Part shown: piece after piece, positions 3,571-27,549 of the stretch
Layout: every line of letters begins with the position of its first letter
How positions within the stretch are numbered: the first letter of the stretch is position 1
Source: Bacteroidota bacterium
GTDB lineage: Bacteria > Bacteroidota > Bacteroidia > AKYH767-A > 2013-40CM-41-45
Direction of reading: 5' to 3'
Length of the DNA: 64,000 nucleotides
Assembly: GCA_031417395.1 (NCBI GenBank)
Contig: JANOVM010000036.1
Span: 56,956-120,955 of the forward strand
Notes under the pieces: model-generated
Seen by the model: the letters and a program-made list of their open reading frames with translations, nothing else
The model's database searches: none
What the model was told of the DNA's origin: nothing
Program-made: the position numbers and the translations under genes

Positions 3571-3800
3571 TAGGGCAGCAATATTTTTTTATTGCATTAG
3601 TAAAATTAAGTAAAGTCTAAATTATTTAATCGATACAAATAGATTGGTTCTCGAATAAGAACGAGAATTTTATTAAGATATTGGGAGTTTAATTTTAAAA
3701 TGATAAGAAAAAATATAGATACTTATTCAATGAAACAATTGAGGCGGTAATAACTGAAGAAATATCTCATTCAATCGACTAAAGAATTTCCAACTAACGG

Positions 3801-4166
3801 CTAATCATTTATTTTTATACCATTTACGAAATAGTCTGTTTCGCCATTCCAGGGCAGATGGCCTCTTTTTTGTTCATAATGTAACGTAACATGTTTTCCT
3901 TCAAGATCAAACATCTGTTTAGCAATGCTGTCCTCTTTGACCGAAAAGAAGAATTTTTCTGAAGCAATTGTTGCATTGATATTGCTGGTAATGCTGCTCA
4001 TAACCAGTTCACCTTCGTAAGTTTTAAAAATGTCTCCTTTCTTAGAAAACTTTTGTAGAATTCCGGAGCGGTTACCTTCACTATAGATGTTATAATATTT
4101 CCAATAGATCCGAAAAGAAAGCAGCAGAAACAAAATCGCGGCTGTCCAAATTAGTACTTTTTTCAT
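3801..4166 (-). CDS. hypothetical membrane-anchored protein
   Basis: ORF with an N-terminal TM helix (ILFLLLSFRIYW). Confidence 0.35.
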   Translation of the reverse strand: MKKVLIWTAAILFLLLSFRIYWKYYNIYSEGNRSGILQKFSKKGDIFKTYEGELVMSSITSNINATIASEKFFFSVKEDSIAKQMFDLEGKHVTLHYEQKRGHLPWNGETDYFVNGIKIND

Positions 4167-13311: not shown

Positions 13312-13854
13312 TTATTTAGCATTGTCCTTGTCGTCGAAATAATTTAGCTTTCCAATTTTACCTTTTATATAGTCCAAATGATTTACGTTCTCTTTCCCAT
13401 TTCCTATTGTTGTCATACCAACATTTAGTTTTATTTGTTCAGCTTCTATGTCGTAAATAGTTTTATTCAGAGCTTCAGCCTTAATGTGATATTTGTACGC
13501 AATTTCTTCAACTTCTGCCAATGTGATTTCAGAAATAATAAACCTATGAATCACTCTGTTTCTGTCGTCATATAGCGTATAAAGGTCATTTAAAAATGTT
13601 GGGTCTATTACTCCTAAGTCTAATGATTTTTTATAAATTTCTTTTTCTGATTTTTTCTTGTCCGATAAACCTTGATAAATCCATTCTGTTTGAATTTCTC
13701 TATTACTATTTACAATTTGATTTTTTAGAATAATTCCAATTCTAAGCAATGCGTCAATTTGATTTGCAATTATACAAGTCGCTTCAATAAAAGCTTTATT
13801 TTCTACAGCTCTGTTGAGAATTAAAGAAGTCGCCCCCACACCTTGCAAGAACAT
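13312..13854 (-). CDS. hypothetical protein, island gene (180 aa)
   Basis: Third gene of the 14322..15128 / 13920..14306 / 13312..13854 operon. No recognisable motif. Confidence 0.45.
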   Translation of the reverse strand: MFLQGVGATSLILNRAVENKAFIEATCIIANQIDALLRIGIILKNQIVNSNREIQTEWIYQGLSDKKKSEKEIYKKSLDLGVIDPTFLNDLYTLYDDRNRVIHRFIISEITLAEVEEIAYKYHIKAEALNKTIYDIEAEQIKLNVGMTTIGNGKENVNHLDYIKGKIGKLNYFDDKDNAK

Positions 13855-13919
13855 ATCAAACCTGTAGGAATTATTTTCATTCGCACTTTTCGTTTCATCT
13901 ATTAGTCTAAATGTTTTTA

Positions 13920-14306
13920 TTATGGAATAAACCCTTTGAATCTTTTTTCAATTGACCTGCCGTCTAAGTCTTTGTCAGGATTATTAGGATGTGTCAGCGT
14001 GAACAGAACAATTTTGTCTTCAAATATTCGTGTCCAAGTTTTTGTTGTAAAGTCTTTGTCGCCTACGTCCGGAAAGCTATAATATTCTAAGTCACTAATT
14101 TTTGAAACAAGTAAAGATTTACTTCTTTGCAGGAAATTATTTTTTTCGGCCTCGTCTTTTATTTTCCTAATTGAAAGCTGAAAAGCGTCAGATTTCCAAA
14201 TTTCGTATTCTTGAAAGGTGTGAACCTTTGCGTCTTTTAGTGAATATTTCCAAGTTGTCGGAACTTTAATTTCAAAAATTCCATTGTCGTCTATGAATCG
14301 TTTCAT
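13920..14306 (-). CDS. hypothetical protein, island gene (128 aa)
   Basis: 15 nt downstream of the 268-aa gene. No recognisable motif. Confidence 0.45.
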   Translation of the reverse strand: MKRFIDDNGIFEIKVPTTWKYSLKDAKVHTFQEYEIWKSDAFQLSIRKIKDEAEKNNFLQRSKSLLVSKISDLEYYSFPDVGDKDFTTKTWTRIFEDKIVLFTLTHPNNPDKDLDGRSIEKRFKGFIP

Positions 14307-14321
14307 CGAGTAGTGTCTTGT

Positions 14322-15128
14322 CTAGTCAATAGGTGTATAACCATACGAAACAAACAAATAAGGATATTTCTTGTGTGCTTCTGACTGGTCTAACTCAAAA
14401 CCACGTAAATAATGTGTCGTTGTATAAGTTTGTCCGTCTTCATTAAGTTTCTTTTTTAGCACCCCATTTATTTTAAAATTTTCTCCATAGAATGCACCAC
14501 ATTGGGGATTTCCTCCAATTGAATTGTCCTCACCTGAAGCTATAGCCCTTTCAATAATTTGAAGTGGTTTTAAAGTCTTATCTTCTTCGTATATTTTCTC
14601 TCCTAGTTTTTTTGCCGAACCAAAGAATGCTATTCCATCTTCTGGTAAAATTTCATCGTAAGTATATTCAATCGTGTCAGGTTTTATGATTGGAAAAAAC
14701 CGAACTAATCGAACTCGTCCTTTTCTTATGCAAAAACCGCCAAGTAATATTTCAGAAAGTCCCCTTTCACGCTGTGTACTGCTTAACTCTGTAGACACGT
14801 CTCTGTATACTTTGAGGATTAGGTCAGCGAGTGAAAAAAAAGAAACATCGGAAAAATTGGTCATATATTGCAGATTTGGCAAAAGTTCTGCAATTGATTC
14901 TTTTACCGTATAGGCATTTACCGAACTGCCAATAATTGCAAGTCCGTAGTCGTGTTCAAATTCATATTTATTAAAGTCCTCTTTCGATTTTGCGGGTCCG
15001 CGGAGTCTAAATTGTACTTTGAAAATTTTAATTCCTTTGTCAAACGCACCTTGTCCGTCAAAGGATAGTCTTGAGTCCGATGAGAAAGTGATTTTGTCCT
15101 TGAGTTTATGTGCAATTACTAAAGTCAT
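14322..15128 (-). CDS. hypothetical protein, island gene (268 aa); candidate partner or effector of the adjacent methyltransferase operon
   Basis: First gene after the GT-skewed leader. No motif recognised, no TM segment. Confidence 0.45.
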   Translation of the reverse strand: MTLVIAHKLKDKITFSSDSRLSFDGQGAFDKGIKIFKVQFRLRGPAKSKEDFNKYEFEHDYGLAIIGSSVNAYTVKESIAELLPNLQYMTNFSDVSFFSLADLILKVYRDVSTELSSTQRERGLSEILLGGFCIRKGRVRLVRFFPIIKPDTIEYTYDEILPEDGIAFFGSAKKLGEKIYEEDKTLKPLQIIERAIASGEDNSIGGNPQCGAFYGENFKINGVLKKKLNEDGQTYTTTHYLRGFELDQSEAHKKYPYLFVSYGYTPID

Positions 15129-15420
15129 TTTTGCTTACAGCTAACTTTTTCGGGCTTGGCGAAGGTGGCGATTTTCACCACAAATGATGATGTTGAGAAC
15201 CAATGTTTGATTAACCACTAATGTGTCTGCGGAGCACTGAACCGCCACTTTTGCCAAACCCGTGTTACCGGTTCGTGCTTCTTTTCTGTCGTTTTGTTGT
15301 CTGCACATGTTGCTATGTATTGGTGCGTTGGTTTGGTGGCTCTTTTGCAAAACTTGGCTTTAGCTTGGGCTTGTGCGGTTTTGCAAATGTGCCACCAATA
15401 GCGTTGGTATTTTATTAGCC
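15129..15420. repeat. GT-skewed (CA-rich in transcript sense), GC-elevated leader with a degenerate ~77 bp periodicity; related to 22957..23240
   Basis: Composition departs sharply from the AT-rich background. Shares GTGCGTTGGTTTG and GGGCTTG(G)GTGC..TTTTGCAAA blocks with the second region. Internal tandem periodicity (15322 vs 15399). Confidence 0.5.
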
Positions 15421-18400
15421 CTATAACCCATATAATGCAATACATGCTTCTTCATATTCATTATATGAGCTTAAATTTTTTATAGCGAGCAATAAAATTC
15501 TTCTGCGTCTGCTTAATGCCCCTGAATTAGGGTTAAGTACTTCAACAATGGCTGGCGTAGTTGCCTTTAATTGTTGATATTCAGCAATCAAATTCCTTGT
15601 CTTTTGAACAACATCCTGATGTGCAGCCTGCATTGCATCATATGGTGGAGTTACCCCAAAAGGTAGTTTGTGGACATGGCGTTCTCCAAATGCTCCACGA
15701 GGTTGAAAATCCTTAATTATTGAACTTATGGCATCGCTATTTAATAAACCAGTTAAATAAATAGCTTCATCTTCTGTAGTTACCTGAGTCCAATAAACAG
15801 TCTGGTCGAGTATTAATCTTGCAGCATCAAAATTTTGAATATTAATATATCCAGAACAAACTTTGCCACCACCTGCACCTGTCATTACTATATATCCTGT
15901 AGGTGAAATAATCTGCTGTGTGAGTTTTCCTCTTGTGTCAATTAAAGAGAATAGAGTGTTTATAGTGCCGGTCTGAGGATCGATAGTTCTGCAAATGGAA
16001 TCAAATGTATTTCTAACAATTGCACCCTTAGCAATTATAGCAGCAGTTGATAGAACTTCCCATTCGTTTGCAACATTCTTTTTAATAGGTAATAATGCTT
16101 TCTGAAATTCAGCAATGTCAAAAGGTGTAAGCAAATTTGAAGTTATTACATTAAAGAAAAGGTCACTTGGCATTATTCTCGGGCCTAATGTAAAATCTTG
16201 ATGCTTCTTTGCGTCCTTTACTGTGAAAGCAAGATTGCTTGTTGTTGGATTAATAGATTGAACATTAAAAAGGAGAGGATTTCCTGTTGGGGTAGCTTCA
16301 TAGAAAAGTAAATTTCGAGGCATTATATCTGCACCTTGTCTAAAATTAGCCGGTACATAAAAACCAGCATCATCATCTGTTAACTCATTTTCACTCCATG
16401 CTGTACGATTGCCTTGTTTATTTTTATAGAAAACTATTTCGGTGGGTAGTTGATTTTCAAATACTATTTGCCCTGGAAATGGTTCATCAGAATTAACATC
16501 GGGCTCGTTCTTAAGCCCAAATAGTATAACTGCTTTGTTTTTGAATACATGTTCTTGAACCTTCCATAATTCGTTTATTTCAAAAGGTACAGCTCTTTTT
16601 GAAGTAACAAACTGAAATTTTCTAAAGGGGTTATGGTGATGCCCATTTAGTATTGTGTCAGGTACTATACAACCAATTTGTGCATCATCAACTAAATATT
16701 GCTGGATAGCATAGAGAAGAAAAATCGTTGCAAGTTCAATGTGTAAATGTGAAGAGCCTGATGGTTTAATGTCAAAATCTTCCGCCATCTTTTTTAAAAT
16801 AAATTGATACGGATTATTAGCAACTTTACTCAATGCAAGCCAAGGTGGATTTGAAACAAGTCCATTAAACTGACCTAATACCAAACCAGGTCGGAAACTA
16901 TTTCTAAGGATATAAACCCATATCCCATTCCTGCCATCCCTATTTAATATATCAATTTTAGAAACAAGCTGACTAAAGAAATTAAAAACCTCTTCTGTTT
17001 GACTTTCATCAAAATCTACTGATACTGCAGATTTGATGGCATCTATATGAGTAACTATATCTTCTCTACTCACCGATAAGGATGCGTTATTATGAGACGA
17101 TACTACTATTCTATAACTTACATCAATTAAACTATCAAAAAAGTCACGGTACTTAGGCGAAATAAGATAATCAGGTAAATCAATAGAATATTCTGCGATC
17201 CTTAATGAATAAACATTTTTATCTGCATCATCAATGTTATTTGATATTGGAGTTATAGCAAAAAGTGAATCAGCATGATAAACTGGAATTGAAATTTGAA
17301 AGGCTCCAAGTGGTTGTATCCAATCCTTTGCTGCTAAGACCCAGTTAATCTTTGAGAGCATAACTGCTAATGGATCAATATCGAAACCCGTTATGGATTG
17401 AGTGAGAAGATGTATTTGATTCTCTTTTGTTAAATGTCCAGTCGCAGAAAGAATGCGTTGCTTAGCAATTCCTAATGTTTCTACTATCATTGAACCGGAG
17501 CCACAACACATGTCTATAAGACGCAATGGTTCAGTTTGGGCTATACCTGATACAACACGAGCTACAAGCTTATGGGAAAGCCAACCCGGTGTCCATTCCT
17601 GGCCAAGCAACAGTCTTTGAGAACGGTTTGCCAACTGGGCCATTAACTTTCCAAATAAATCTTCACTTGGATTTGAATTAAAATCGTAGGCAACCAAATC
17701 TTGTTGAATTGTTCTTGCAATAGGAATAATTGAAGCAATATGTGGTTGAGAATTTATCCATCCAAAATAATCATACTCAACAAAATTTATTAACCCCTTA
17801 TTCTCAAAAAAGTTACCATTAATGATAGAACTGAGTTCCGTATCATCAGAACTCAGAGCTTTCTGTTCCAAATAATTCGCACATATCAGTTTACCTAATG
17901 TAAGAATATAATATTCGTCAACGTAGGTCTTTAAATCAAATTGATCTGACCTTCCTTCCTCTCTGAGATAGCTAACAAAGCTGCACCACAAATCTGAAAT
18001 GAGCTTTGCATATTTCGGATTAGCAGAAAAAGCATTTGTAACTATTGTAGAAAGTGAAGCTATATGCCCTTGACAAAACCTGCTTTCAAACCCTAAATCT
18101 TTAGCAATTGAATATGCTGAAACAGGCCTTGCCCCAATACGACCAAGATATTTTAAAAGAAATTTTGTTAAATCATTAGCGGTTTTTTCTGATACAACGG
18201 AACAATCTATAAATTCAATCTGTTTCAGAATGATATTGTCTCTACTACAAGCATCCATAGGCAATTGAGACAAATCAATCTCATAAGCATACCACCGAAC
18301 AGTATCAGATAAAATCCCGATAATTAGTTCCGGGTCATGCCCTTGATTTACTAAGCTTGAGCAATAGTCTTTTACCTGATTGTAACCAGTATTATACTTA

Positions 18401-18678
18401 GAGCTAATAGTCAAGTCGCCTTCGTATTCAATAGCTGTTAAGTCAACGAGATTGTCAACAAAGCCAGTGCTGCCTTTTGTACCTTTGATTATTTTTACTG
18501 CCGCTTCGCTACCTTGAATATGCCTGACTACCCAACTTGGTGATTCCGGAAAAACTTGACGCAAGTGGGATGTAAAACTATCCCGAATCACTTGCTCATT
18601 TTTCCCTTCTGCCATCAATTGAAGGCTGTCAGAAAGACTTTGCTGTGCGGATACGGTATTTATTATTGTTACATTCAT
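15421..18678 (-). CDS. MmeI-family Type IIG/IIL-like restriction-modification fusion protein (N-terminal PD-(D/E)XK-like domain + gamma-class N6-adenine methyltransferase + C-terminal specificity region), 1085 aa
   Basis: LIDMCCGSGSM (FxGxG, motif I) followed ~230 aa later by LVSNPPW (motif IV), with GQEWTPGW before motif I. N-terminal GFVDNLVDLTAIEYE resembles the MmeI GFVD...IEMK nuclease motif but has Glu where the catalytic Lys is expected (alignment from memory). 4-nt overlap with the upstream MTase gene. Confidence 0.6.
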   Translation of the reverse strand: MNVTIINTVSAQQSLSDSLQLMAEGKNEQVIRDSFTSHLRQVFPESPSWVVRHIQGSEAAVKIIKGTKGSTGFVDNLVDLTAIEYEGDLTISSKYNTGYNQVKDYCSSLVNQGHDPELIIGILSDTVRWYAYEIDLSQLPMDACSRDNIILKQIEFIDCSVVSEKTANDLTKFLLKYLGRIGARPVSAYSIAKDLGFESRFCQGHIASLSTIVTNAFSANPKYAKLISDLWCSFVSYLREEGRSDQFDLKTYVDEYYILTLGKLICANYLEQKALSSDDTELSSIINGNFFENKGLINFVEYDYFGWINSQPHIASIIPIARTIQQDLVAYDFNSNPSEDLFGKLMAQLANRSQRLLLGQEWTPGWLSHKLVARVVSGIAQTEPLRLIDMCCGSGSMIVETLGIAKQRILSATGHLTKENQIHLLTQSITGFDIDPLAVMLSKINWVLAAKDWIQPLGAFQISIPVYHADSLFAITPISNNIDDADKNVYSLRIAEYSIDLPDYLISPKYRDFFDSLIDVSYRIVVSSHNNASLSVSREDIVTHIDAIKSAVSVDFDESQTEEVFNFFSQLVSKIDILNRDGRNGIWVYILRNSFRPGLVLGQFNGLVSNPPWLALSKVANNPYQFILKKMAEDFDIKPSGSSHLHIELATIFLLYAIQQYLVDDAQIGCIVPDTILNGHHHNPFRKFQFVTSKRAVPFEINELWKVQEHVFKNKAVILFGLKNEPDVNSDEPFPGQIVFENQLPTEIVFYKNKQGNRTAWSENELTDDDAGFYVPANFRQGADIMPRNLLFYEATPTGNPLLFNVQSINPTTSNLAFTVKDAKKHQDFTLGPRIMPSDLFFNVITSNLLTPFDIAEFQKALLPIKKNVANEWEVLSTAAIIAKGAIVRNTFDSICRTIDPQTGTINTLFSLIDTRGKLTQQIISPTGYIVMTGAGGGKVCSGYINIQNFDAARLILDQTVYWTQVTTEDEAIYLTGLLNSDAISSIIKDFQPRGAFGERHVHKLPFGVTPPYDAMQAAHQDVVQKTRNLIAEYQQLKATTPAIVEVLNPNSGALSRRRRILLLAIKNLSSYNEYEEACIALYGL

Positions 18679-20717
18679 TTACGAATTCTCTTTTTTAAAA
18701 GTGTTTGCTTTATTATTGAAAGATCATTGAGTTTTTGAAAGACATTAGTCCCAAATCCAAAAGCATTAAGAATAATAGAATCTATTTCAAATATTAATCT
18801 TTCAGTATTTACATCTGGGGCTGATAAATTTTCTCCAAGAATCGTGAGACTACTAATCAATGCAGTATTTAATATGGGGAATGGGATTTTCTTCAATTGT
18901 GTGGCCTCTAATTTTAAAGCTCCACCACCCATGACTGTTCCATATTCTTCCATTGCTACAGTCGCCCATGTGCTATTTAATAAAGCAAGCAATGAATAAT
19001 TATTGTGAGGTGACTTTTTATCAGAAATCCAGAGAGAAGAAAAATTGGCATCAATAAGATATTTAGATTCGTTATTCAACCTTGTCTTTACGGTTCCGGT
19101 ATTTACTCTTGGAATAAATAAGTCGGGGAAGTGTCGCTTTGTAAACTCTGGCAGTGAGTACCAAAATCTTGGAATCTCATTCGCTTTTTTTTCATTCCAT
19201 TTTTTTACATTTGGCTTTACAGCTGATAGATCTGGAATTAATTTATCAGTAGTTTTATTTCCATTTTTAAATGTTGACACCTTCCTTATATAATTAGCTA
19301 AAGGTTCTGGAATCTCGTCATACTTGTTATGAAATGCGGCATTGCATTTTTCAACAAATGAAATATCCTCTATTAGAGCAAAAGATTGTAAGGATAGAAC
19401 AACCCCATCTGACTTAACTTCATTCACTGTAAAAGTGTTATCAAGTTCCGACTGTTTTCTTACTACTTCCCTGAAGTATTTTCTATTAATATGGAAGGGA
19501 AGCAGCTTAAATCGCTTGTGTGGGGCTACTAAAATTTCTTCATTGGTTGCCAATTTGTAATTCAGATAGAAAAAATTATTCGCACCAGTCCTTAAACCCT
19601 GACTTACTGCTACACCTATATCTTGAAGATGACAAAAACTAATTTTTACATCTTCATACCAATCTCTAAGAGAAGAAGATGATTTTATTCCATTACTAAC
19701 CAGCTTTTTGCCTGTATAATCTTCTTCAAATAATTTATACCATTTTTGAGTGGTAATTGAGAACTTCAAATCATTGGCAAAGTTTCTTATGGAAATACTT
19801 TTGCTTTCAAATAAACCTTTTACTGATACTTCATTGTCAATGGCTTTAATAAAATCAAGCTCAGGTGAAATGCTTTCTGGAAATATATTTCCGACCAAAC
19901 TGTTAGCAGTTATTGCCTTTGAATATATTGCTGAATAGATGAACTTTTCATCGTCCCATGAGATCAAAGATTTTTTTCTTTTTATCCTTTCCGCAACAAT
20001 TAAAGTGGTTTTGACCTGTGCAGGCTGAAACCATGTAGAGTTTGCATCCTCTATTATATATTCAATTTTAAACCAACGAGATAAAAGATATTTTACAATT
20101 AAGGCGTAATCTCTATTTAGCCAGGTTTCTGGAACAACCATTGCAATCTTGCCACCCTCTTTTACCAATACAGCACATAAAATCCATGAAGGAACAGCAA
20201 GGTCAGAAAGCCCTGATAAGTTTGAAATTATTAGTTTAAAGTAATCTTTGTCAACCTTATCTATTGTTTCAAAATGGTTCAAACACTCAATTAAATTACT
20301 CCGAATTTCATTTATGTTAAGAGTAGAAGGATAACCTTGCTCAACTTTATTAATCGTTTGATAACGAACATAAGGAGGGTTAGTAATTACTAAATCGTAG
20401 CCTTGTGGCAATAATTGTTTTAATATTTCTGTACTAAAGGCATTACCATTGAGTAAATTAATGGATGGGAAATCGCCAATTCTTCTTTGTAAATTTCCAT
20501 AAACATCTGTATCAATTTCAATACCTGTCAAATTTGTTGATGATTCAAAATTCTTTGTGAAGTTTAAAAACATATCACCAATACCACACATTGGGTCAAT
20601 GATATTTTTTGCATTAGCACACTTTGCCAAGTCTGCCAGTAAACATGCCACTGACCTGCCAGAGAAATACTGGCCTAATTCCTTTTTGTTTGATATTTTC
20701 GTTTGTATCACTTCCAA
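18675..20717 (-). CDS. gamma-class N6-adenine DNA methyltransferase (Eco57I/TaqI-like) with TaqI_C-like target-recognition domain, 680 aa
   Basis: IIDPMCGIGDMF (motif I) then LVITNPPYVRYQ (NPPY, motif IV). C-terminal ...YGTVMGGGALKLEATQLKKIPFP resembles the TaqI_C specificity-domain end. Confidence 0.7.
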   Translation of the reverse strand: MEVIQTKISNKKELGQYFSGRSVACLLADLAKCANAKNIIDPMCGIGDMFLNFTKNFESSTNLTGIEIDTDVYGNLQRRIGDFPSINLLNGNAFSTEILKQLLPQGYDLVITNPPYVRYQTINKVEQGYPSTLNINEIRSNLIECLNHFETIDKVDKDYFKLIISNLSGLSDLAVPSWILCAVLVKEGGKIAMVVPETWLNRDYALIVKYLLSRWFKIEYIIEDANSTWFQPAQVKTTLIVAERIKRKKSLISWDDEKFIYSAIYSKAITANSLVGNIFPESISPELDFIKAIDNEVSVKGLFESKSISIRNFANDLKFSITTQKWYKLFEEDYTGKKLVSNGIKSSSSLRDWYEDVKISFCHLQDIGVAVSQGLRTGANNFFYLNYKLATNEEILVAPHKRFKLLPFHINRKYFREVVRKQSELDNTFTVNEVKSDGVVLSLQSFALIEDISFVEKCNAAFHNKYDEIPEPLANYIRKVSTFKNGNKTTDKLIPDLSAVKPNVKKWNEKKANEIPRFWYSLPEFTKRHFPDLFIPRVNTGTVKTRLNNESKYLIDANFSSLWISDKKSPHNNYSLLALLNSTWATVAMEEYGTVMGGGALKLEATQLKKIPFPILNTALISSLTILGENLSAPDVNTERLIFEIDSIILNAFGFGTNVFQKLNDLSIIKQTLLKKRIRK

Positions 20718-20728
20718 AATAAAACTGG

Positions 20729-22573
20729 TTAAATTGAATATTGAGTTTTAGGCAATTCATGTTTAATTATGCTGTAGAATTCACCTGCATCAAATAAAAC
20801 CGGCTTCCCTAATTCCAAACAAGCATTTATATATCTTGAGAAAAGCCTCTCAGGTGTTTGTTCATCATGATTGTTTGATATTAAAAAGGCATTACTAATA
20901 ATCTTCTTAATTAAAGCAGAATCATAATCCTTTTTAATTGCTGACTTTTTTTGTGATACTGTTTCTGATTTAGAAAGCAGCAATAAAGGGTCACCCTGAA
21001 CCTTCACATTTGAGATTACCTGTTTAAAACTACTTTGTATTTTATCAAGTATACTTGATGTAACCACAGTGAAATTTGACCTTTGGTACGAATCAATTAA
21101 AGCTTGCCAGATTTCAGCTTTTGCTGAATGAAATACGAGACTAACTGATCCATTATTTTTAAGAACTCTGTTGACTTCGGAAAATACTGACTGCATAAGC
21201 TGTCTATATTCATCTATTCCCTTTTTTTGAGCAACATTCATTATTGCTTCATCTTTTTGATTGGTTAATTTTCCTAACCAAGCCTCATTAATTTGATTTA
21301 TTTCAGAGTAGGGTATGTAATCACCAAATGGTGGATCTGTAAAAACATAGTCAACTGTTTGCTCAGGAAGTTCTATCTTGGTACTACTTGAATTATAAAC
21401 CCGCACTTTACTCTCACTATTTTCCACAAGTTTAAAAGCTTGTTTTAGAGTAGATATTTTACGTCTAACTCCTTCAAGTATGTTTTTCTCAATAGGCAAG
21501 CCACTTATATATAAAACACCCGACTGAGAACCTGTAATTACAAAATCAGTACTATTCTTTTTTACAACCACCCGTGTCATTAAAGTTGAATGAGAGGAGT
21601 TATAACTAAGTAGAAGAAACTTTAAAGCATCTTGATACTCTAAAGGATAGCTGCTTATTTTATTCCATAACCTTGAAAAAACAACAGCATTTCTGTCGGT
21701 GTAGAAATGGTGAAGATGTGATATACCAGTATGATAACCTTTGCGATACAAAACGCCCCAATTAATTTCATGCTTAGGAAAGCTAATTATCTCAATAGGT
21801 GATAAACAGTTTTTAAAATGACTAATATCCTTTTTTGTAACAAGACGGCTCCATGATTTCTTGCCCGTACGACCATAAATTTTTACAGGTATTCTTTTCT
21901 TAGCAACATGATTTTTATTTAGAATTATATCCCAAGAGTTTTCAGTTGCACGGTGTATATTATTTATTGCATCACTATGTTTACAGTGAGGGCATTTAAA
22001 GTTTGATGAAATACTAAGCGGTTTTTGAGTTACGGCAATATCCCAAAAAGTGGATTCCTTTTTACATTTGGTACACTCCAAAACATCGGACCAAATCACA
22101 TATCTGATGATTCCTTCATTACCATCATTATCAACGACTGAATAAATATTACCAACCTCGATTTCAACATCTTTTAATAATTTTTGAGCAAGCTTTTCAA
22201 ATTTATCCGGAGAAGGTGGATTACACATAACATTACTTACAAATGCACCTAACGTACTAAGTTCATATAAAACTGCATTACGTTTACCCCATTTTGGATT
22301 AAGACAAAGGCTTTTTGCAGTATCAATCATAAATTGGGTTGGTTTGTCGCATAGCATTGTAGCTAATCCAGTTGTTCCACTGCCTGCAAAAGGGTCTAAA
22401 ACGGTAGCACCTACATCGGTGTGACAAGCAATAAATATTCCGATTGATTCTGGTGATATTTTAGTTGGATATGAAAAGGCATTGTATAATGCCCCATTTC
22501 TATTTGAGGGTAATGGAGAATTATAAAGTTTTTTCAAATCAGAGATTTGTAGTTGTGTTTTTTTATCTTTCAT
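20729..22573 (-). CDS. N4/N6 DNA methyltransferase with permuted motif order and an inserted zinc ribbon, 614 aa
   Basis: YPTK...VLDPFAGSGTTGLA (beta-class-like AdoMet motif) near the N-terminus. ~340-aa insert with CTKCKK...CPHCKH. Then VFTDPPFG...RVLKNNGSVSLVFHS (motif IV and following region). Confidence 0.7.
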   Translation of the reverse strand: MKDKKTQLQISDLKKLYNSPLPSNRNGALYNAFSYPTKISPESIGIFIACHTDVGATVLDPFAGSGTTGLATMLCDKPTQFMIDTAKSLCLNPKWGKRNAVLYELSTLGAFVSNVMCNPPSPDKFEKLAQKLLKDVEIEVGNIYSVVDNDGNEGIIRYVIWSDVLECTKCKKESTFWDIAVTQKPLSISSNFKCPHCKHSDAINNIHRATENSWDIILNKNHVAKKRIPVKIYGRTGKKSWSRLVTKKDISHFKNCLSPIEIISFPKHEINWGVLYRKGYHTGISHLHHFYTDRNAVVFSRLWNKISSYPLEYQDALKFLLLSYNSSHSTLMTRVVVKKNSTDFVITGSQSGVLYISGLPIEKNILEGVRRKISTLKQAFKLVENSESKVRVYNSSSTKIELPEQTVDYVFTDPPFGDYIPYSEINQINEAWLGKLTNQKDEAIMNVAQKKGIDEYRQLMQSVFSEVNRVLKNNGSVSLVFHSAKAEIWQALIDSYQRSNFTVVTSSILDKIQSSFKQVISNVKVQGDPLLLLSKSETVSQKKSAIKKDYDSALIKKIISNAFLISNNHDEQTPERLFSRYINACLELGKPVLFDAGEFYSIIKHELPKTQYSI

Positions 22574-22956
22574 AATTTTCTCATCATTTTGTATTTGATT
22601 TGTTTTTCAGCAACCTTCAGTGCTTGAATTCCAAAATCTTCGTCTTGAATTTCGTAAAGAATTTTTTCGCTTAAATATTGAATAAGTAACGATTCCTTGT
22701 CGAGTTCAAGAATGTTAGCTAACTTGGTTATCTGGTCACGAGTTGCTTTTCTTTCTCCTCGTTCAATCTTACTCAGTATAGCTGTGTCAATGTCGAGTTG
22801 AGCAGAAACGTGTCGCAATAGCAGCCCTTTTTTCTCTCTTTTCTCTCTGATTATTTCTCCGGTCGTTTTCAATTTGAAAATATTAACTTGACAATTATTG
22901 TCAAATGTAAAAAGTATTTTTGTCTTGGTCGCAATAAATTTGAAAGATTTTATCAA
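22570..22956 (-). CDS. XRE-family helix-turn-helix transcriptional regulator (possible controller protein of the MTase operon)
   Basis: LLLRHVSAQLDIDTAILSKIERGERKATRDQITKLANIL HTH. First gene of the operon, 4-nt overlap with the next gene. Confidence 0.6.
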   Translation of the reverse strand: MIKSFKFIATKTKILFTFDNNCQVNIFKLKTTGEIIREKREKKGLLLRHVSAQLDIDTAILSKIERGERKATRDQITKLANILELDKESLLIQYLSEKILYEIQDEDFGIQALKVAEKQIKYKMMRKL

Positions 22957-23371: not shown

Positions 23372-23406
23372 AAAAAAAGGTGGCGAATACTTTCCGCCAC
23401 CTTTTA
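23372..23406 (-). terminator. rho-independent terminator downstream of 23425..25398
   Basis: GGTGGCG-loop-CGCCACC hairpin flanked by an A-run and a T-run. Confidence 0.5.
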
Positions 23407-23424: not shown

Positions 23425-25398
23425 TTAATGAAAAACAACTATCTTAGATATTCCTTCTGTTTTATTTTCACCTATTACCTTTATGGTATAAATGCCTTCC
23501 GGTAACCTTGATGTATTTATAATATGCGATTCAGTACTGAAGGAGCCCTTAAGTACTTCTTTTCCCATGGCATCGGTAACAATGATTTTTCTTAATTGCC
23601 GGTTATTAAAAAATAGCTGACATTTTTCATTCGATGGATTTGGAAATACATTGATCTGTGAAGAAGAATTTTCAGGTTGAGAAATAGAAAGAAACTGATC
23701 AACAGTATTCACCGTCATATTCGTATAAATCGGTTGATTGAAGTCAAAATAAATGGAAGCGGAATTTTGAATCTGTGTTAAATGAGCTACATTATTGTTT
23801 TGTTTTATCTTATAGGAAACATAACCATGACTGGCAGGTTCATTGGCATTGCTATCGGGAAGCATAATGTTGTCGTAGTTAAAGCGAATAATGTTTCCGG
23901 TAAGTAAAGACCAATGCATTGTGTGACTGGTCGCAATTACTTCAATAGATGATATATCCAGATTCTGATCAATGGTGTCAAGTATATATGTATTATAAGC
24001 TTCAGCATTTCCCGTATTTTGGAAACGAATGGTATAGGTAAGATCGGTATTTGGTCTTACGGAACCTTGTACTCCCTCTCCGGATGGTGTAACATACTTA
24101 TCATTCGGATCCCAGGAATTTACGACGGGAAAACAAAATGTTTGAGAATTGTTGGAAGGAATGGAATCTCCTGCAACAGGAGTAAGGTTTACCGTCACAC
24201 AAACACTGTCGCCTATATTGGCATTGGGAGAAACTTGCACAGGAAGACAGAAAGACCAGTATAGATCAGGACTGCTGATAGGAAATGTTACTGTTTGTCC
24301 GTTGACTGTATAACCAATACCTGCTGTGTCGGGTAATGGAGTCAGGTCAGCATCGAATACTAATTCAATTTGTCCGTTAGGGGTATTGCAAAATTGATTG
24401 AATGCATGAACACAAAGACTTCCCGTAAAACCCGGACGGAATCTCCAGCCGCTTGCCCAACTGCGAAGATCAAAACCGGGAGGACAGTTTAAGCCGAAGT
24501 CGTTTCCTGTTGAAGGTATTGTACTTACAGTTTGTATCCCTGAAAGCGGACAGGAAGGAGTAAAATGCACAGAATATCCATTCGGTGCATTTACCTGAAC
24601 AGTATAGGTTGATCCGACAGGTACGTTAAACGAATAGACCCCATTGGAATCAGTGCTTGCCCAACCGCCTAATGTTGTTCCATTCAAAAGAGTTAGAGAA
24701 ATGTTGGGCAACAGAATATCACCGGCATCGTAAATGCAATTATTATTTATATCCTGGTAAACAATACCGGAAATATTTCCACATGTTGATGCAACGACTA
24801 TTTGATTCGCTACTACCGTATCTGCCTGCTGATTCGGACCTGTCATAATAAGGGAAGGGATATAACTTCCTGCATTAGTATAGATATGAGTGAACATCCC
24901 ATTTATTTGAATATTCGCAGCAGATAGATAAAAAACGCTGTCGATTCCATCGCCAAACAGAACTTCAAATTTTATAGAATCAGTAGGTAAATATCCGTTT
25001 GTATAGCCGTAATAATAAAAGTCTTCTGCTGCCGGAACTGTGCAATAATAGAAAAGTGAGTCATCAAAAAACTGTAATGATACAAATGGTGTAAAATTAA
25101 CAGGTACATTCTGACAAATAAAGTCTGAACATCCGAGGCTGTCGTATATTGTAAGGCATGCGTTGTATATACCTACACCTGAATAAGTATGTGTAGGATT
25201 CGTCAGATTTGATGAATCACCATCACCGAAATCCCAGGTATAGGTCATAGGCCCTGAACCAGTAGAACCATTGGCGAAGGCTACGACTGATGACGACGGT
25301 TGAACGACAGTGTAGTTAAAGTTTGCAACACATTGAGCATAGAGGTTGCCTGTGAAAAGGAAAACAATCAGAAACAGAAGGAGTAGTTTTTTTTTCAT
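23425..25398 (-). CDS. T9SS-sorted adhesin-like protein (PKD domain, SdrD-B/CarboxypepD_reg-like domain, DUF11-type conserved repeat, T9SS type-A CTD), 657 aa
   Basis: Signal peptide. WDFGDGDSSNLTNPTHTY PKD motif. DINNNCIYDAGDILLPN B-type domain. SWDPNDK...IRFQNTGNAEA DUF11-like motif. C-terminal VFPNPSNEK...IVVFH. Confidence 0.6.
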   Translation of the reverse strand: MKKKLLLLFLIVFLFTGNLYAQCVANFNYTVVQPSSSVVAFANGSTGSGPMTYTWDFGDGDSSNLTNPTHTYSGVGIYNACLTIYDSLGCSDFICQNVPVNFTPFVSLQFFDDSLFYYCTVPAAEDFYYYGYTNGYLPTDSIKFEVLFGDGIDSVFYLSAANIQINGMFTHIYTNAGSYIPSLIMTGPNQQADTVVANQIVVASTCGNISGIVYQDINNNCIYDAGDILLPNISLTLLNGTTLGGWASTDSNGVYSFNVPVGSTYTVQVNAPNGYSVHFTPSCPLSGIQTVSTIPSTGNDFGLNCPPGFDLRSWASGWRFRPGFTGSLCVHAFNQFCNTPNGQIELVFDADLTPLPDTAGIGYTVNGQTVTFPISSPDLYWSFCLPVQVSPNANIGDSVCVTVNLTPVAGDSIPSNNSQTFCFPVVNSWDPNDKYVTPSGEGVQGSVRPNTDLTYTIRFQNTGNAEAYNTYILDTIDQNLDISSIEVIATSHTMHWSLLTGNIIRFNYDNIMLPDSNANEPASHGYVSYKIKQNNNVAHLTQIQNSASIYFDFNQPIYTNMTVNTVDQFLSISQPENSSSQINVFPNPSNEKCQLFFNNRQLRKIIVTDAMGKEVLKGSFSTESHIINTSRLPEGIYTIKVIGENKTEGISKIVVFH

Positions 25399-25575: not shown

Positions 25576-27549
25576 CTAATGTTTAACTATCAACTTAGAT
25601 ATAACTTCTGAATTATCGGATTCAATTATTCTGACAGTATATAATCCGGCAGCGAATTTAGCAGTATTTATTGTATAGGATTCCGAACGGAAAGTGTTTT
25701 TGAAAACTTCTTTTCCAAAAACATCTGTAACAATAAGCTTTCTGGTGTTCTGGTCTTTAAAAAATAACTGACATTTTTCATTCGATGGATTAGGATAAAT
25801 ATTCATTAAGGAAGAATTATTTTCCGTTTTGGAAATGGAAAGGAACATGTCAACCGTATTCACTGTCTTATTCGTATAAATCGGAGGATTGAAATCAAAA
25901 TAAATGGAGGCTGAATTCTGAATCTGTGTTAAATGTGCAACGTTGTTATTTTGTTTGATTCTGTAAGTAACGTAACCATGACTTGCAGGTTCATTGGCAT
26001 TACTGTCGAGGAGCATAATATTGTCGTAGTTAAAGCGAATAATATTTCCTGTAAGAATAGACCAATGCATGGTATGGCTTGTAGCAATAACTTCCAAAGA
26101 AGTTGGATCAAGGCTTGCATCAAGGGTATCGAGGATATAAATATTAATCGCTTCAGCATTTCCTGTATTCTGGAAACGTATGGTATAGGTTAGGTCTGTA
26201 TTCGGACGAATAGCTCCCTGTCCTCCATCGCCTGAAGGAATTACATACTTATCATTCGGATCCCAGGAATTTCTGACAGGAAAACAAAACGTTTGTGTGT
26301 TATTGGAAGGAATTGAATCTCCTAAAACCGGTGTAAGGTTCATGGTGATACATATACTATCTCCTATTTGTGCATTGGTTGCAACTGTAACAGGAATGCA
26401 GAATGACCAATTTAAATCAGGACTGCTTATTGGTAATGTAACCGTTTGTCCGGTGATTGTATAGCCAATTCCTGTCGTATCCGGTAGTGGTGTCAAATCA
26501 GGATCAAGTATTATTTCTATCTGACCGTTTGGTGTATTGCAAAATTGATTGTAAGCATAAATGCATACGCTTGTTGTAAATCCCGGACGGAATCCCCAGC
26601 CGCTTACAAAACCCTGAAGGTCAAATCCCGGCGGACAAGTAAGTCCGAAATCATTTCCGGAGGAAGGAAGCGAACTTACGCTAATACTTCCCGATGGTGG
26701 ACAGGTAGAAGTAAGATGATAATAATATCCTCCCAGAGTATTAACCTGAATGGTATAGCTTGGACCTGTAGGTACGTTAAAAGAATAAACTCCGTTTGAA
26801 TCAGAACTTGCCCAGCCTACTACGGTGCTTCCATCATAAATAGTGAGAGAAACATAAGGCAATAGTATATCACCGGCATCGTAAATACAATTGTTATTTA
26901 TGTCCTGGTAAATAGTTCCTGTTATACTTCCGCATGTAGCTCCAACTATAATTGGATTGGCATTCATTGTATCGGCAGCTAAATCAGGGCCTGTTACTAT
27001 AAGTTGAGGATTGTAATTTCCTGCATTGGTATAAATATGAGTAACCATTCCATAAAAAGATGAATTAGCAGTTGATTGATAAAAAGTGCTGTCTGTTCCA
27101 TCACCAAAAATAAAATTGAATTTTATGGAATCGGTTGGCAGGTAACCGAAAGCACCACCGGAAAAATAGAAGTCTTCAGAAGCAGGTGTCGTACAAAAAT
27201 AGTACAGGGAATCATCGAAATACTGTATGACCACACCCGGTGCTACATTTAATGAAACTGCAACAGTAGAAGAGTCTGTACAACCTAAGCCATCACTTAT
27301 AGTTAGGCTTACATAATACACGCCACCTGCAACGTAAGTATGTGTTGGATTTGGAAGATTAGAGCTGCTTCCATCACCAAAACTCCATTGGTAAGTTAAT
27401 GGTTGAGATCCCGTAGAGGTATTAACAAATGAAATAACTGCAGGCACAGCAGGTCCTCCGGAATAAGTAAATGAAGCGACACATTGAGCCCTAAGTTCAC
27501 CGGCTAGTAGCAAGAGGGCGAATAAGGAAAGAAGTAGATTTTTTTTCAT
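25576..27549 (-). CDS. T9SS-sorted adhesin-like protein, tandem paralog of 23425..25398 (657 aa)
   Basis: Same domain order and identical length. Large blocks are identical (DINNNCIYDAGDILLP, NSWDPNDKYV, IRFQNTGNAEA, HGYV.Y.IKQNNNVAHLTQIQNSASIYFDFN). Confidence 0.6.
   Translation of the reverse strand: MKKNLLLSLFALLLLAGELRAQCVASFTYSGGPAVPAVISFVNTSTGSQPLTYQWSFGDGSSSNLPNPTHTYVAGGVYYVSLTISDGLGCTDSSTVAVSLNVAPGVVIQYFDDSLYYFCTTPASEDFYFSGGAFGYLPTDSIKFNFIFGDGTDSTFYQSTANSSFYGMVTHIYTNAGNYNPQLIVTGPDLAADTMNANPIIVGATCGSITGTIYQDINNNCIYDAGDILLPYVSLTIYDGSTVVGWASSDSNGVYSFNVPTGPSYTIQVNTLGGYYYHLTSTCPPSGSISVSSLPSSGNDFGLTCPPGFDLQGFVSGWGFRPGFTTSVCIYAYNQFCNTPNGQIEIILDPDLTPLPDTTGIGYTITGQTVTLPISSPDLNWSFCIPVTVATNAQIGDSICITMNLTPVLGDSIPSNNTQTFCFPVRNSWDPNDKYVIPSGDGGQGAIRPNTDLTYTIRFQNTGNAEAINIYILDTLDASLDPTSLEVIATSHTMHWSILTGNIIRFNYDNIMLLDSNANEPASHGYVTYRIKQNNNVAHLTQIQNSASIYFDFNPPIYTNKTVNTVDMFLSISKTENNSSLMNIYPNPSNEKCQLFFKDQNTRKLIVTDVFGKEVFKNTFRSESYTINTAKFAAGLYTVRIIESDNSEVISKLIVKH

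What the first reader, a model, noticed from the sequence alone, without database searches (positions are those of the whole stretch)
15421..18678. MmeI-family Type IIL-like fusion protein whose nuclease motif appears degenerate (D-x8-E-x-E instead of D-x9-E-x-K)
The protein has gamma-class methyltransferase motifs (GQEWTPGW, DMCCGSGSM, SNPPW) and a long C-terminal specificity region. Its N-terminal segment GFVDNLVDLTAIEYE resembles the MmeI catalytic segment GFVD...IEMK as I recall it. The position of the essential Lys is Glu here. If the alignment holds, this is a nuclease-dead MmeI relative, like the PglX-type methylases of BREX systems. Restriction would then have to come from another gene, possibly the adjacent 268/128/180-aa operon.
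Basis: partly seen in the sequence, partly recalled or inferred. Interest (0 to 1): 0.6.

Follow-up and report, generated by a model that had tools for sequence, protein, structure and literature searches.

The report
BseRI-type restriction enzyme, not nuclease-dead
This gene encodes an ordinary member of the BseRI family of combined restriction-and-methylation enzymes. Its odd-looking "D...ExE" nuclease motif is the family's normal, previously published active-site variant and is not a sign of a dead nuclease.

Summary
ORF 15421-18678 (- strand, 1085 aa) carries GFVD75-x8-E84-Y-E86, plus GQEWTPGW, DMCCGSGSM and NPPW.

The "nuclease-dead, PglX-like" reading fails. The protein is 50% identical over 99% of its length to RM.BseRI of Bacillus sp. 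R (AAQ72370.1). BseRI is a characterised enzyme that cuts GAGGAG 10/8, and it carries the identical string GFVDNLVDLTAIEYE.

A 2011 paper already assigned BseRI to the PD-(D/E)XK nucleases with a "BamHI-like motif-III (ExE)". D75, E84 and D125 are invariant in 179 full-length relatives, and E86 is present in 168. The 11 relatives with Lys at 86 are mostly in an outgroup clade, so position 86 is the canonical Lys position.

The nuclease domain is the part most conserved with BseRI (56%). The upstream genes are the BseRI companion methylases: an m4C type (52% identical to the M.BseRI N-half) and a gamma type (40% to the C-half). Here they are split into two ORFs and preceded by an HTH controller gene.

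The downstream 268/128/180-aa genes are not conserved next to relatives. The 268-aa gene occurs elsewhere without any such enzyme.

One small new point is that a basic residue alternates between positions 87 and 94 in ExE members. This suggests a relocated lysine.

The parts
15421..18678 (-). RM gene: BseRI-family Type IIG restriction-modification enzyme, 1085 aa (nuclease, helical linker, gamma N6-adenine methyltransferase, target-recognition domain)
   Evidence: It is 50% identical over 99% of its length to BseRI endonuclease AAQ72370.1 and 67% identical to the F. suaedae protein named 'BseRI endonuclease'. The full-length AF2 model has pLDDT 83, and its best PDB matches are MmeI, PglX, DrdV and BpuSI.
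18259..18678 (-). N-terminal PD-(D/E)XK-type nuclease domain (about residues 1-140)
   Evidence: The AF2 model of residues 1-190 has pLDDT 90.4. Its core runs helix 28-42, strands 59-65, 68-78 and 81-85, helix 92-111, strand 120-124. Foldseek matches are weak but include BpuSI 3s1s (prob 0.84), RecC and exonuclease 3l0a. The literature assigns BseRI to PD-(D/E)XK. This domain is 56% identical to BseRI, the highest of the four domains.
18421..18465 (-). Catalytic segment G72-F-V-D75-x8-E84-Y-E86 (motifs II and III, ExE variant)
   Evidence: D75 and E84 are invariant in 179 of 179 full-length relatives. Position 86 is E in 168 and K in 11. The segment is identical in BseRI.
18397..18399 (-). Lys94, at the first turn of the helix after strand 3; candidate relocated active-site basic residue
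   Evidence: Among the 169 E86 sequences (168 relatives plus the query), a basic residue is at 94 only in 120, at 87 only in 39, at both in 2 and at neither in 8. The state switched at least 15-18 times on a tree built from residues beyond 200. Spatial proximity was not measured.
16519..17688 (-). Gamma-class N6-adenine methyltransferase domain (about residues 331-720; GQEWTP, DMCCGSGS, NPPW)
   Evidence: Pfam N6_Mtase and Eco57I hits. The motif residues are invariant in 20 homologues.
15424..16518 (-). C-terminal target-recognition region (about residues 721-1085)
   Evidence: 48% identical to BseRI. The fold matches the MmeI/PglX/BpuSI class. The specificity is unknown.
18675..20717 (-). M2: gamma-class adenine methyltransferase, 680 aa (Eco57I-type with TaqI_C-like C-terminus). 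Its stop overlaps the RM start codon (ATGA).
   Evidence: Pfam. 40% identical over its full length to residues 629-1300 of the 1309-aa M.BseRI homologue in locus L001. The same gene sits upstream of the RM gene in L003, L004 and the P0002 contig.
20729..22573 (-). M1: beta-class N4/N6 (m4C-type) methyltransferase with Cys-rich insert, 614 aa
   Evidence: Pfam N6_N4_Mtase at 3.8e-18. 52% identical to residues 24-609 of M.BseRI. The literature describes M.BseRI as an m4C-MTase fused to a gamma-MTase.
22570..22956 (-). HTH (XRE-type) controller-like protein. The ORF is listed as 128 aa from TTG 22956. The likely true start is TTG 22872, giving 100 aa as in homologous loci. Its stop overlaps the M1 start codon.
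   Evidence: Pfam HTH_3, and PADLOC control-protein models. HTH genes of 100-101 aa occupy the same position in L003 and the P0002 contig. Sequence read.
22888..22904 (.). Perfect palindrome TTGACA-N5-TGTCAA just upstream of the probable HTH start, overlapping a promoter-like TTGACA-16-TATTTT; candidate controller operator (C-box)
   Evidence: Similar imperfect inverted repeats lie at the same place in L003 and L004. The function is inferred.

Best explanation
The gene encodes an active BseRI-family Type IIG restriction-modification enzyme. One polypeptide carries an N-terminal PD-(D/E)XK-type nuclease, a helical spacer, a gamma-class N6-adenine methyltransferase and a C-terminal DNA-recognition domain. 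By analogy with BseRI, it would bind an asymmetric site and cut a fixed short distance to one side (10/8 in BseRI).

Host DNA is protected by two companion methylases encoded just upstream, an m4C type for one strand and a gamma adenine type for the other. These correspond to the two halves of the fused M.BseRI. An XRE-type HTH controller protein heads the four-gene operon.

The D75...E84-x-E86 triad is the family's normal active site. It is the BamHI-like variant in which Glu replaces the canonical Lys. The acidic cluster (probably with E58 and D125) would bind the metal ions. A basic residue from the following helix (K94 here, or position 87 in other members) probably supplies the positive charge that Lys86 gives in canonical relatives.

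Shown here: homology, operon conservation, motif conservation and fold class. Inferred: catalytic competence of this particular protein, its recognition site, and the roles of E86 and K94.
For: - The protein is 50% identical over 99% of its length to BseRI endonuclease AAQ72370.1, which has the identical GFVDNLVDLTAIEYE segment.
- BseRI is a characterised enzyme, GAGGAG 10/8, with organisation R~gammaM~TRD plus M1~M2.
- A published assignment places BseRI in PD-(D/E)XK with a 'BamHI-like motif-III (ExE)'.
- D75, E84 and D125 are invariant. E28, E58, Q101 and Y105 are nearly invariant. E86 is present in 168 of 179 full-length relatives drawn from a profile search of 1.84 billion representative proteins.
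- An outgroup clade with the same architecture has D-x8-E-x-K.
- The nuclease domain is the most conserved domain versus BseRI, at 56%.
- The AF2 N-terminal model is confident (pLDDT 90.4) and has an alpha-beta-beta-beta-alpha-beta core. BpuSI, RecC and an exonuclease are among its top Foldseek hits.
- The companion methylases are 52% and 40% identical to the two halves of M.BseRI.
- The HTH-M1-M2-RM cassette, with the same overlaps, is conserved in three other Bacteroidota loci.
- The basic residue alternates between positions 87 and 94 with many independent switches.
Against: - There is no biochemical data for this protein.
- Foldseek matches of the isolated nuclease domain are all weak (best E=0.03, none at or below 0.001).
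- Pfam and PDB sequence searches find nothing for the N-terminal domain.
- I could not read the model coordinates, so the proximity of K94 to the acidic cluster is untested.
- Eight E86 relatives have no basic residue at 87 or 94.
- GAGGAG is not avoided in the window, with 10 sites against 10.3 expected. This says nothing about specificity either way.
Confidence: 0.85

Rival explanations
1. One reading: the nuclease domain is degenerate. The protein would then be only a methylase or specificity module, like PglX of BREX, and cleavage would come from the neighbouring 268/128/180-aa genes.
For: Glu does replace the canonical Lys at position 86. The full-length model also matches PglX/BrxX structures. 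Weak PglX profile hits fall on the methylase core.
Against: The identical motif is present in the active enzyme BseRI. ExE is strictly conserved, and the nuclease domain is the best-conserved domain, which is the opposite of decay.

The downstream genes differ in every related locus: a different 180-aa protein in Bacillus, 131 aa in F. suaedae, and 144 + 453 aa in L004. BLASTP found no similarity for the two pairs compared, window 180 aa versus L001 180 aa and window 128 aa versus L003 131 aa.

Homologues of the 268-aa gene, including a 90% identical one, sit in unrelated contexts without any ORF of RM size next to them. A 292-bp gap separates the 268-aa gene from the RM gene.

The BREX PglX model scores 21 bits against a cutoff of 500.
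Confidence: 0.04
2. The enzyme is active, but the site is strictly BamHI-like and needs no lysine. E86 would act as general base or metal ligand. The K94/K87 pattern would be merely structural or a DNA-backbone contact, not a relocated catalytic residue.
For: The literature calls the motif BamHI-like. To my knowledge BamHI works with E77/D94/E111/E113 and no Lys (this is recalled and was not tested here). Eight ExE relatives lack a basic residue at both 87 and 94. Position 94 turns hydrophobic when 87 is basic, as expected for simple packing covariation.
Against: 95% of ExE members keep exactly one basic residue at 87 or 94, against 55% of ExK members (Fisher p=3e-4, not corrected for phylogeny). 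The switch happened many times independently.
Confidence: 0.35
3. The gene is a silenced or inactive copy in this particular strain. The family would be active, but this allele would be crippled elsewhere and tolerated as a methylase.
For: Type IIG genes are often found inactivated in genomes. The MmeI paper describes disrupted native ORFs that had to be repaired. In related locus L004 the controller gene looks truncated.
Against: The ORF is full length. All 20-sequence invariant residues are present, because they are defined on an alignment that includes it. Both companion methylases and the controller are intact, and the translational-coupling overlaps are preserved.
Confidence: 0.08

Closest known systems
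RM.BseRI / M.BseRI system of Bacillus sp. R (GAGGAG 10/8; AAQ72370.1)
   Same: Full-length homology at 50% identity, and an identical GFVDNLVDLTAIEYE catalytic segment. The domain order R~gammaM~TRD is the same. The companion m4C and gamma methylases are homologous (52% and 40%) and lie immediately upstream in the same order.
   Different: The companion methylase is one 1309-aa fusion in Bacillus but two ORFs here (614 + 680 aa, 11-nt gap). This split is shared by the other Bacteroidota loci. An HTH controller gene is present here, and no such gene was called next to the Bacillus copy. The recognition domain is only 48% identical, so the site may differ.
BamHI-type active site (D...ExE variant of PD-(D/E)XK)
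   Same: Glu occupies the position of the canonical Lys in motif III. The literature explicitly calls the BseRI motif BamHI-like.
   Different: There is no detectable sequence or family relationship to BamHI. Here the domain is fused to a methylase and cuts outside the site. A conserved basic residue at 94 or 87 may take part, and I know of no counterpart in BamHI (this is my own knowledge and was not tested here).
MmeI family (Type IIL/IIG, D70-x9-E80-x-K82)
   Same: The overall architecture is shared, and MmeI is the best solved-structure match for the whole-protein model. The GF[VI]D...E-x-[K/E] segment looks similar. An acidic residue near strand 1 is conserved in both (E58 here, E51 in MmeI).
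   Different: No MmeI chain appeared among the sequence matches to PDB chains at E<=1. The spacing is D-x8 rather than D-x9, and Lys is replaced by Glu. Two companion methylases flank this gene, whereas MmeI-family genes have none and rely on single-strand modification. BseRI cuts 10/8, not 20/18.
Eco57I / BpuSI monomeric Type IIG enzymes with companion methylases
   Same: These also have the R~gammaM~TRD fusion accompanied by separate methylases that modify both strands. The BpuSI structure is recovered by both models.
   Different: Those enzymes have a canonical PD...ExK site, for example PD-x15-ExK in BpuSI (abstract). Identity is only about 10-12%.
PglX/BrxX of BREX
   Same: A large gamma-methylase with TRD of the same fold class.
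   Different: No BREX partner genes were seen among the ORFs listed between 8.4 and 30.4 kb. The PglX models score far below their cutoffs. This protein has a conserved nuclease active site.

Membership tests
BseRI family (Type IIG R-M enzymes) | Full-length sequence homology to RM.BseRI | tested here: met
   50% identity over 99% coverage to AAQ72370.1, reported E-value 0. Identity by domain is 56, 50, 52 and 48%.
BseRI family (Type IIG R-M enzymes) | Nuclease motif III of the ExE (BamHI-like) type after a conserved Asp | tested here: met
   D75-x8-E84-x-E86, identical to the BseRI segment.
BseRI family (Type IIG R-M enzymes) | Companion m4C-type and gamma-type methylases (M1~M2) adjacent to the RM gene | tested here: met
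   The 614-aa and 680-aa ORFs are 52% and 40% identical to the two halves of the 1309-aa M.BseRI homologue. They are split rather than fused.
BseRI family (Type IIG R-M enzymes) | Recognition of GAGGAG and cleavage at 10/8 | not testable with these tools
   The TRD is 48% identical. The GAGGAG count in the window equals expectation, which is uninformative.
PD-(D/E)XK nuclease superfamily | Alpha-beta-beta-beta-alpha-beta core, with Asp at strand 2 and (D/E)xK at strand 3 | tested here: met
   The order of secondary-structure elements in the AF2 model fits (pLDDT 90.4). Relatives with the canonical ExK at the same columns exist. The SVM-based assignment is published.
PD-(D/E)XK nuclease superfamily | Significant structural match to solved members | tested here: inconclusive
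MmeI family (Type IIL) | Sequence similarity to MmeI over the whole length (E<1e-20 in Morgan et al. 2009) | tested here: not met
   phmmer against PDB chain sequences lists no MmeI chain at E<=1. The criterion is quoted. MmeI (5hr4) is in the PDB copy that Foldseek searched. I did not check separately that it is in the sequence file. Only fold-level similarity was found (12% identity).
MmeI family (Type IIL) | Conserved D70/E80/K82 catalytic triad | tested here: not met
   The Lys position is Glu, and the spacing is x8 rather than x9.
MmeI family (Type IIL) | No accompanying methyltransferase gene (single-strand self-modification) | tested here: not met
   Two methylase genes lie immediately upstream in the same operon.
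BREX PglX | Match to PglX models above cutoff, and BREX partner genes nearby | tested here: not met
   NF033452 scores 21.4 bits against a cutoff of 500. Only the seven ORFs from 13312 to 22956 were scanned with family models. The other listed ORFs were judged from their translations only, and none looks like a BREX component.

The most novel reading that the evidence does not exclude
Within the BseRI family the active-site positive charge is mobile. The ancestral D-x8-E-x-K site changed to ExE. After that, a single Lys/Arg has repeatedly hopped between position 87 and position 94 (the first turn of the next helix), with at least three apparent reversions to K86. This would make the family a natural series for studying how PD-(D/E)XK sites tolerate lysine relocation, in an enzyme that is already purified commercially.
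Probability: 0.4. Interest if true: 0.35.

Novelty: new member of a known kind. Interest (0 to 1): 0.15.

Why it matters
For annotation, this shows that an ExE motif at the ExK position must not be read as a dead nuclease. The same motif is native to a commercial restriction enzyme.

The window simply holds one more BseRI-type R-M cassette, in a Bacteroidota genome. It differs in having its protective methylase split into two genes and a controller gene added.

Two points go modestly beyond the literature I could find. First, a family-wide survey shows canonical ExK in an outgroup and strict ExE elsewhere. Second, a basic residue at positions 87 and 94 is close to mutually exclusive, which points to a testable relocated lysine.

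Tried and rejected
**N-terminal domain searches**
- The N-terminal 300 aa had no Pfam hit even at E<=10, and no PHROGs hit at E<=0.1.
- A profile of the N-terminal domain against PDB sequences gave only chance-level hits.
- Foldseek of the isolated domain gave only weak hits.

**Specificity**
- I looked for GAGGAG avoidance in the window as a hint of specificity. The count was 10 against 10.3 expected, which is uninformative.

**Downstream genes as possible partners**
- They have no Pfam, NCBIfam or PADLOC assignment. The 268-aa protein hits only phrog_16034, of unknown function.
- BLASTP found no similarity between the window 180-aa and L001 180-aa proteins, or between the window 128-aa and L003 131-aa proteins.
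- Homologues of the 268-aa gene are not next to RM genes.

**Other candidate catalytic residues in the N-terminal domain**
- K103, in the conserved Q-x-x-x-Y helix, was considered as the substitute lysine and rejected. Position 103 is A, C, Q, E or L in a number of relatives.
- D79 was considered as the catalytic Asp and rejected. It is Gly in about half of the relatives.

**Split methylase**
- A frameshift artefact for the split methylase was considered and rejected. The same split is seen in three other loci, with the same 11-nt gap in L003 and the P0002 contig.
Full report
**Observation**

The ORF at 15421-18678 on the minus strand translates without interruption to 1085 aa.
- GFVD75NLVD79LTAIE84YE86 at residues 72-86
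- GQEWTPGW at 359-366
- DMCCGSGSM at 389-397
- SNPPW at 609-613

Pfam places N6_Mtase and Eco57I methylase domains between 342 and 691. The best PADLOC model is a Type IIG restriction enzyme-methyltransferase (PDLC03630, 1.5e-49).

**Identity**

A search of the 5.8-billion-protein collection returned over a thousand relatives. The 120 listed are 47-92% identical, and almost all are about 1085 aa and align over the whole length.

Two of them carry informative names. P0011 is 'BseRI endonuclease [Flavobacterium suaedae]' (67% identical). P0079 is from Bacillus sp. R (50% identical, 99% coverage). An exact look-up shows that P0079 is AAQ72370.1 / UniProt Q6UQ57, 'BseRI endonuclease [Bacillus sp. 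R]'.

Its sequence contains RTGFVDNLVDLTAIEYES, so the questioned segment is letter-for-letter the same as in the window protein. BseRI is a characterised restriction enzyme that recognises GAGGAG and cuts 10/8. The D-x8-E-x-E motif therefore belongs to a working nuclease.

**What the literature says**

Orlowski and Bujnicki (2008) still listed the BseRI family under 'unknown superfamily'. Laganeckas, Margelevicius and Venclovas (NAR 2011, PMC3045609) then assigned it to the PD-(D/E)XK superfamily. [quoted passage not shown]

Loenen et al. (2014) describe the system as R~gammaM~[GAGGAG] & M1~M2, where the companion enzyme is an m4C-methylase fused to a gamma-methylase.

**Family-wide check of the motif**

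I built a profile of the first 190 residues from 20 diverse relatives (A2). I then searched 1.84 billion representative proteins with it and obtained 257 hits at E<=0.001. I aligned all retrieved sequences to the profile and examined the 179 full-length proteins:

| Position | Result |
|---|---|
| D75, E84, D125 | invariant |
| E28 | 175 of 179 |
| E58 | 177 |
| Q101 | 172 |
| Y105 | 170 |
| Position 86 | Glu in 168, Lys in 11 |

Eight of the eleven Lys-bearing proteins fall in a 12-member outgroup clade on a neighbour-joining tree. They have motifs such as GFIDTFSGTIVIEFK. The other three (P0111, P0166, P0167) are scattered inside the ExE clade. The outgroup proteins have the same length and the same best PADLOC model.

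This establishes two things. The Glu is also a fixed, selected state of a large clade, not decay. Consistent with this, the nuclease domain is the part of the protein most similar to BseRI, at 56%, against 50% for the linker, 52% for the methylase and 48% for the TRD.

**Fold**

An AlphaFold2 model of residues 1-190 is confident (mean pLDDT 90.4, pTM 0.87). It has helices at 8-23, 28-42 and 48-55, then strands at 59-65, 68-74/76-78 and 81-85, then a helix at 92-111 and strands at 120-124 and 128-134. [quoted passage not shown]

The full-length model (pLDDT 83) matches the following structures at 10-12% identity:
- MmeI (5hr4, E=3e-13)
- PglX/BrxX (8c45)
- DrdV (7lvv)
- BpuSI (3s1s)
- Stand-alone gamma methylases M.BseCI and CamA

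**A possible relocated lysine**

No single Lys in the domain is invariant. K103, in the conserved Q-x-x-x-Y helix, varies, and D79 is Gly in half of the family.

There is, however, a striking pattern. Counting the query, there are 169 ExE proteins. Of these, 120 have Lys/Arg at position 94 with a small residue at 87, and 39 have Lys/Arg at 87 with a hydrophobic residue at 94. Only 2 have both and 8 have neither. Position 94 is in the first turn of the helix after strand 3.

On a tree built only from residues beyond 200, the 87 state changes at least 15 times and the 94 state at least 18 times. The pattern is therefore not one inherited event. Of the 11 ExK proteins, only 6 have a basic residue at either place.

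I read this as a hint that the positive charge lost at 86 is supplied from 94 (as in this protein and in BseRI) or from 87. The alternative is a strictly BamHI-like, lysine-free site in which 87 and 94 covary through packing. I could not obtain model coordinates to measure distances, so this remains inference.

**Operon**

On the minus strand the order is:
- HTH gene (22956/22872-22570)
- M1 (22573-20729), a 614-aa beta-class N6_N4 methylase
- M2 (20717-18675), a 680-aa gamma-class Eco57I-type methylase
- RM (18678-15421)

ATGA overlaps link HTH to M1 and M2 to RM.

In the Bacillus locus a single 1309-aa methylase precedes BseRI. M1 is 52% identical to its residues 24-609, and M2 is 40% identical to its residues 629-1300.

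F. suaedae, the 91%-identical metagenomic relative and a third Bacteroidota contig all show the split arrangement. The first two also have an intact 100-101-aa HTH gene in front, while in the third locus (L004) only a 52-aa ORF is called there. The split is therefore a genuine lineage feature and not a sequencing frameshift.

A perfect palindrome, TTGACA-N5-TGTCAA (22888-22904), overlaps a promoter-like site just upstream of the probable HTH start. Related imperfect repeats occur at the same place in two homologous loci. It is a plausible controller operator.

**The neighbouring 268/128/180-aa genes**

These genes are separated from the RM gene by 292 bp. They have no Pfam, NCBIfam or PADLOC assignment, and they are not conserved next to relatives. 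Bacillus has an unrelated 180-aa ORF, F. suaedae a 131-aa ORF followed by mobilisation genes, and L004 has 144- and 453-aa ORFs.

Homologues of the 268-aa protein were found in five genomes, one of them 90% identical. They lie in unrelated contexts with no ORF of RM size next to them. Only the gene itself and about 120 bp upstream are shared with the window. Nothing links these genes to restriction.

**Verdict**

This is a new member of a known kind: a complete BseRI-type Type IIG R-M cassette in a Bacteroidota genome.

Membership of the BseRI family is met on every testable criterion. Membership of the MmeI family and of BREX PglX fails on the criteria tested.

The nuclease is most probably active. 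Its specificity cannot be told from sequence. Interest is low. The only mildly new elements are the ExK-to-ExE history and the 87/94 basic-residue alternation.

Noticed in passing
window 22888-22904 (and L003 ~3791-3817, L004 ~3780-3810): A perfect palindrome TTGACA-N5-TGTCAA lies just upstream of the HTH gene and overlaps a promoter-like TTGACA-16-TATTTT. Imperfect related inverted repeats sit at the same place in two homologous loci. It is a candidate controller-protein operator.
   Followed up: partly
window 22570-22956 (-): The mechanical ORF for the HTH protein is 128 aa from TTG 22956. Homologous loci encode 100-101 aa. An in-frame TTG at 22872 would give 100 aa and would place the palindrome in the promoter region.
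   Followed up: partly
window 18675-22573 (-); L001 4053-7982; L003 4118-8004: The protective methylase is one 1309-aa fusion in the Bacillus BseRI locus. In all four Bacteroidota loci examined it is two ORFs (about 612 and 680 aa). The gap between them is 11 nt in the window, L003 and the P0002 contig.
   Followed up: yes
window 14322-15128 (-) plus ~120 bp upstream; L005 5878-6806 and 4268-4400: The 268-aa protein begins MTLVIAH and has no Pfam match. It hits only phrog_16034, of unknown function, at 1e-11. It has homologues in Pedobacter and other Bacteroidota in unrelated contexts. Only the gene and its roughly 120-bp upstream stretch are shared with the window, and that upstream stretch occurs twice in L005. 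It behaves like an independent, possibly mobile, module.
   Followed up: partly
window 23425-25398 and 25576-27549 (-): Two tandem 657-aa paralogues have signal peptides and closely similar sequences throughout. They look like secreted or surface proteins of a Bacteroidota organism. A strong terminator-like hairpin at 23375-23405 separates them from the R-M cassette.
   Followed up: no
L004 3965-4123: In this related locus only a 52-aa ORF is called where the HTH controller gene should be, and the sequence shows an in-frame stop. The controller may be a pseudogene there, while both methylases and the RM gene remain intact.
   Followed up: no
L003 11821-16731: In Flavobacterium suaedae the BseRI-type cassette sits beside mobilisation genes (MobC, relaxase, a TraG-like coupling protein) and an AbiEii toxin gene. 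This suggests carriage on an integrative mobilisable element.
   Followed up: no
P0111, P0166, P0167 (relatives, not in window): Three proteins nested inside the ExE clade carry Lys at position 86 (EYK). They appear to be reversions to the canonical motif, and P0111 lacks a basic residue at both 87 and 94.
   Followed up: partly
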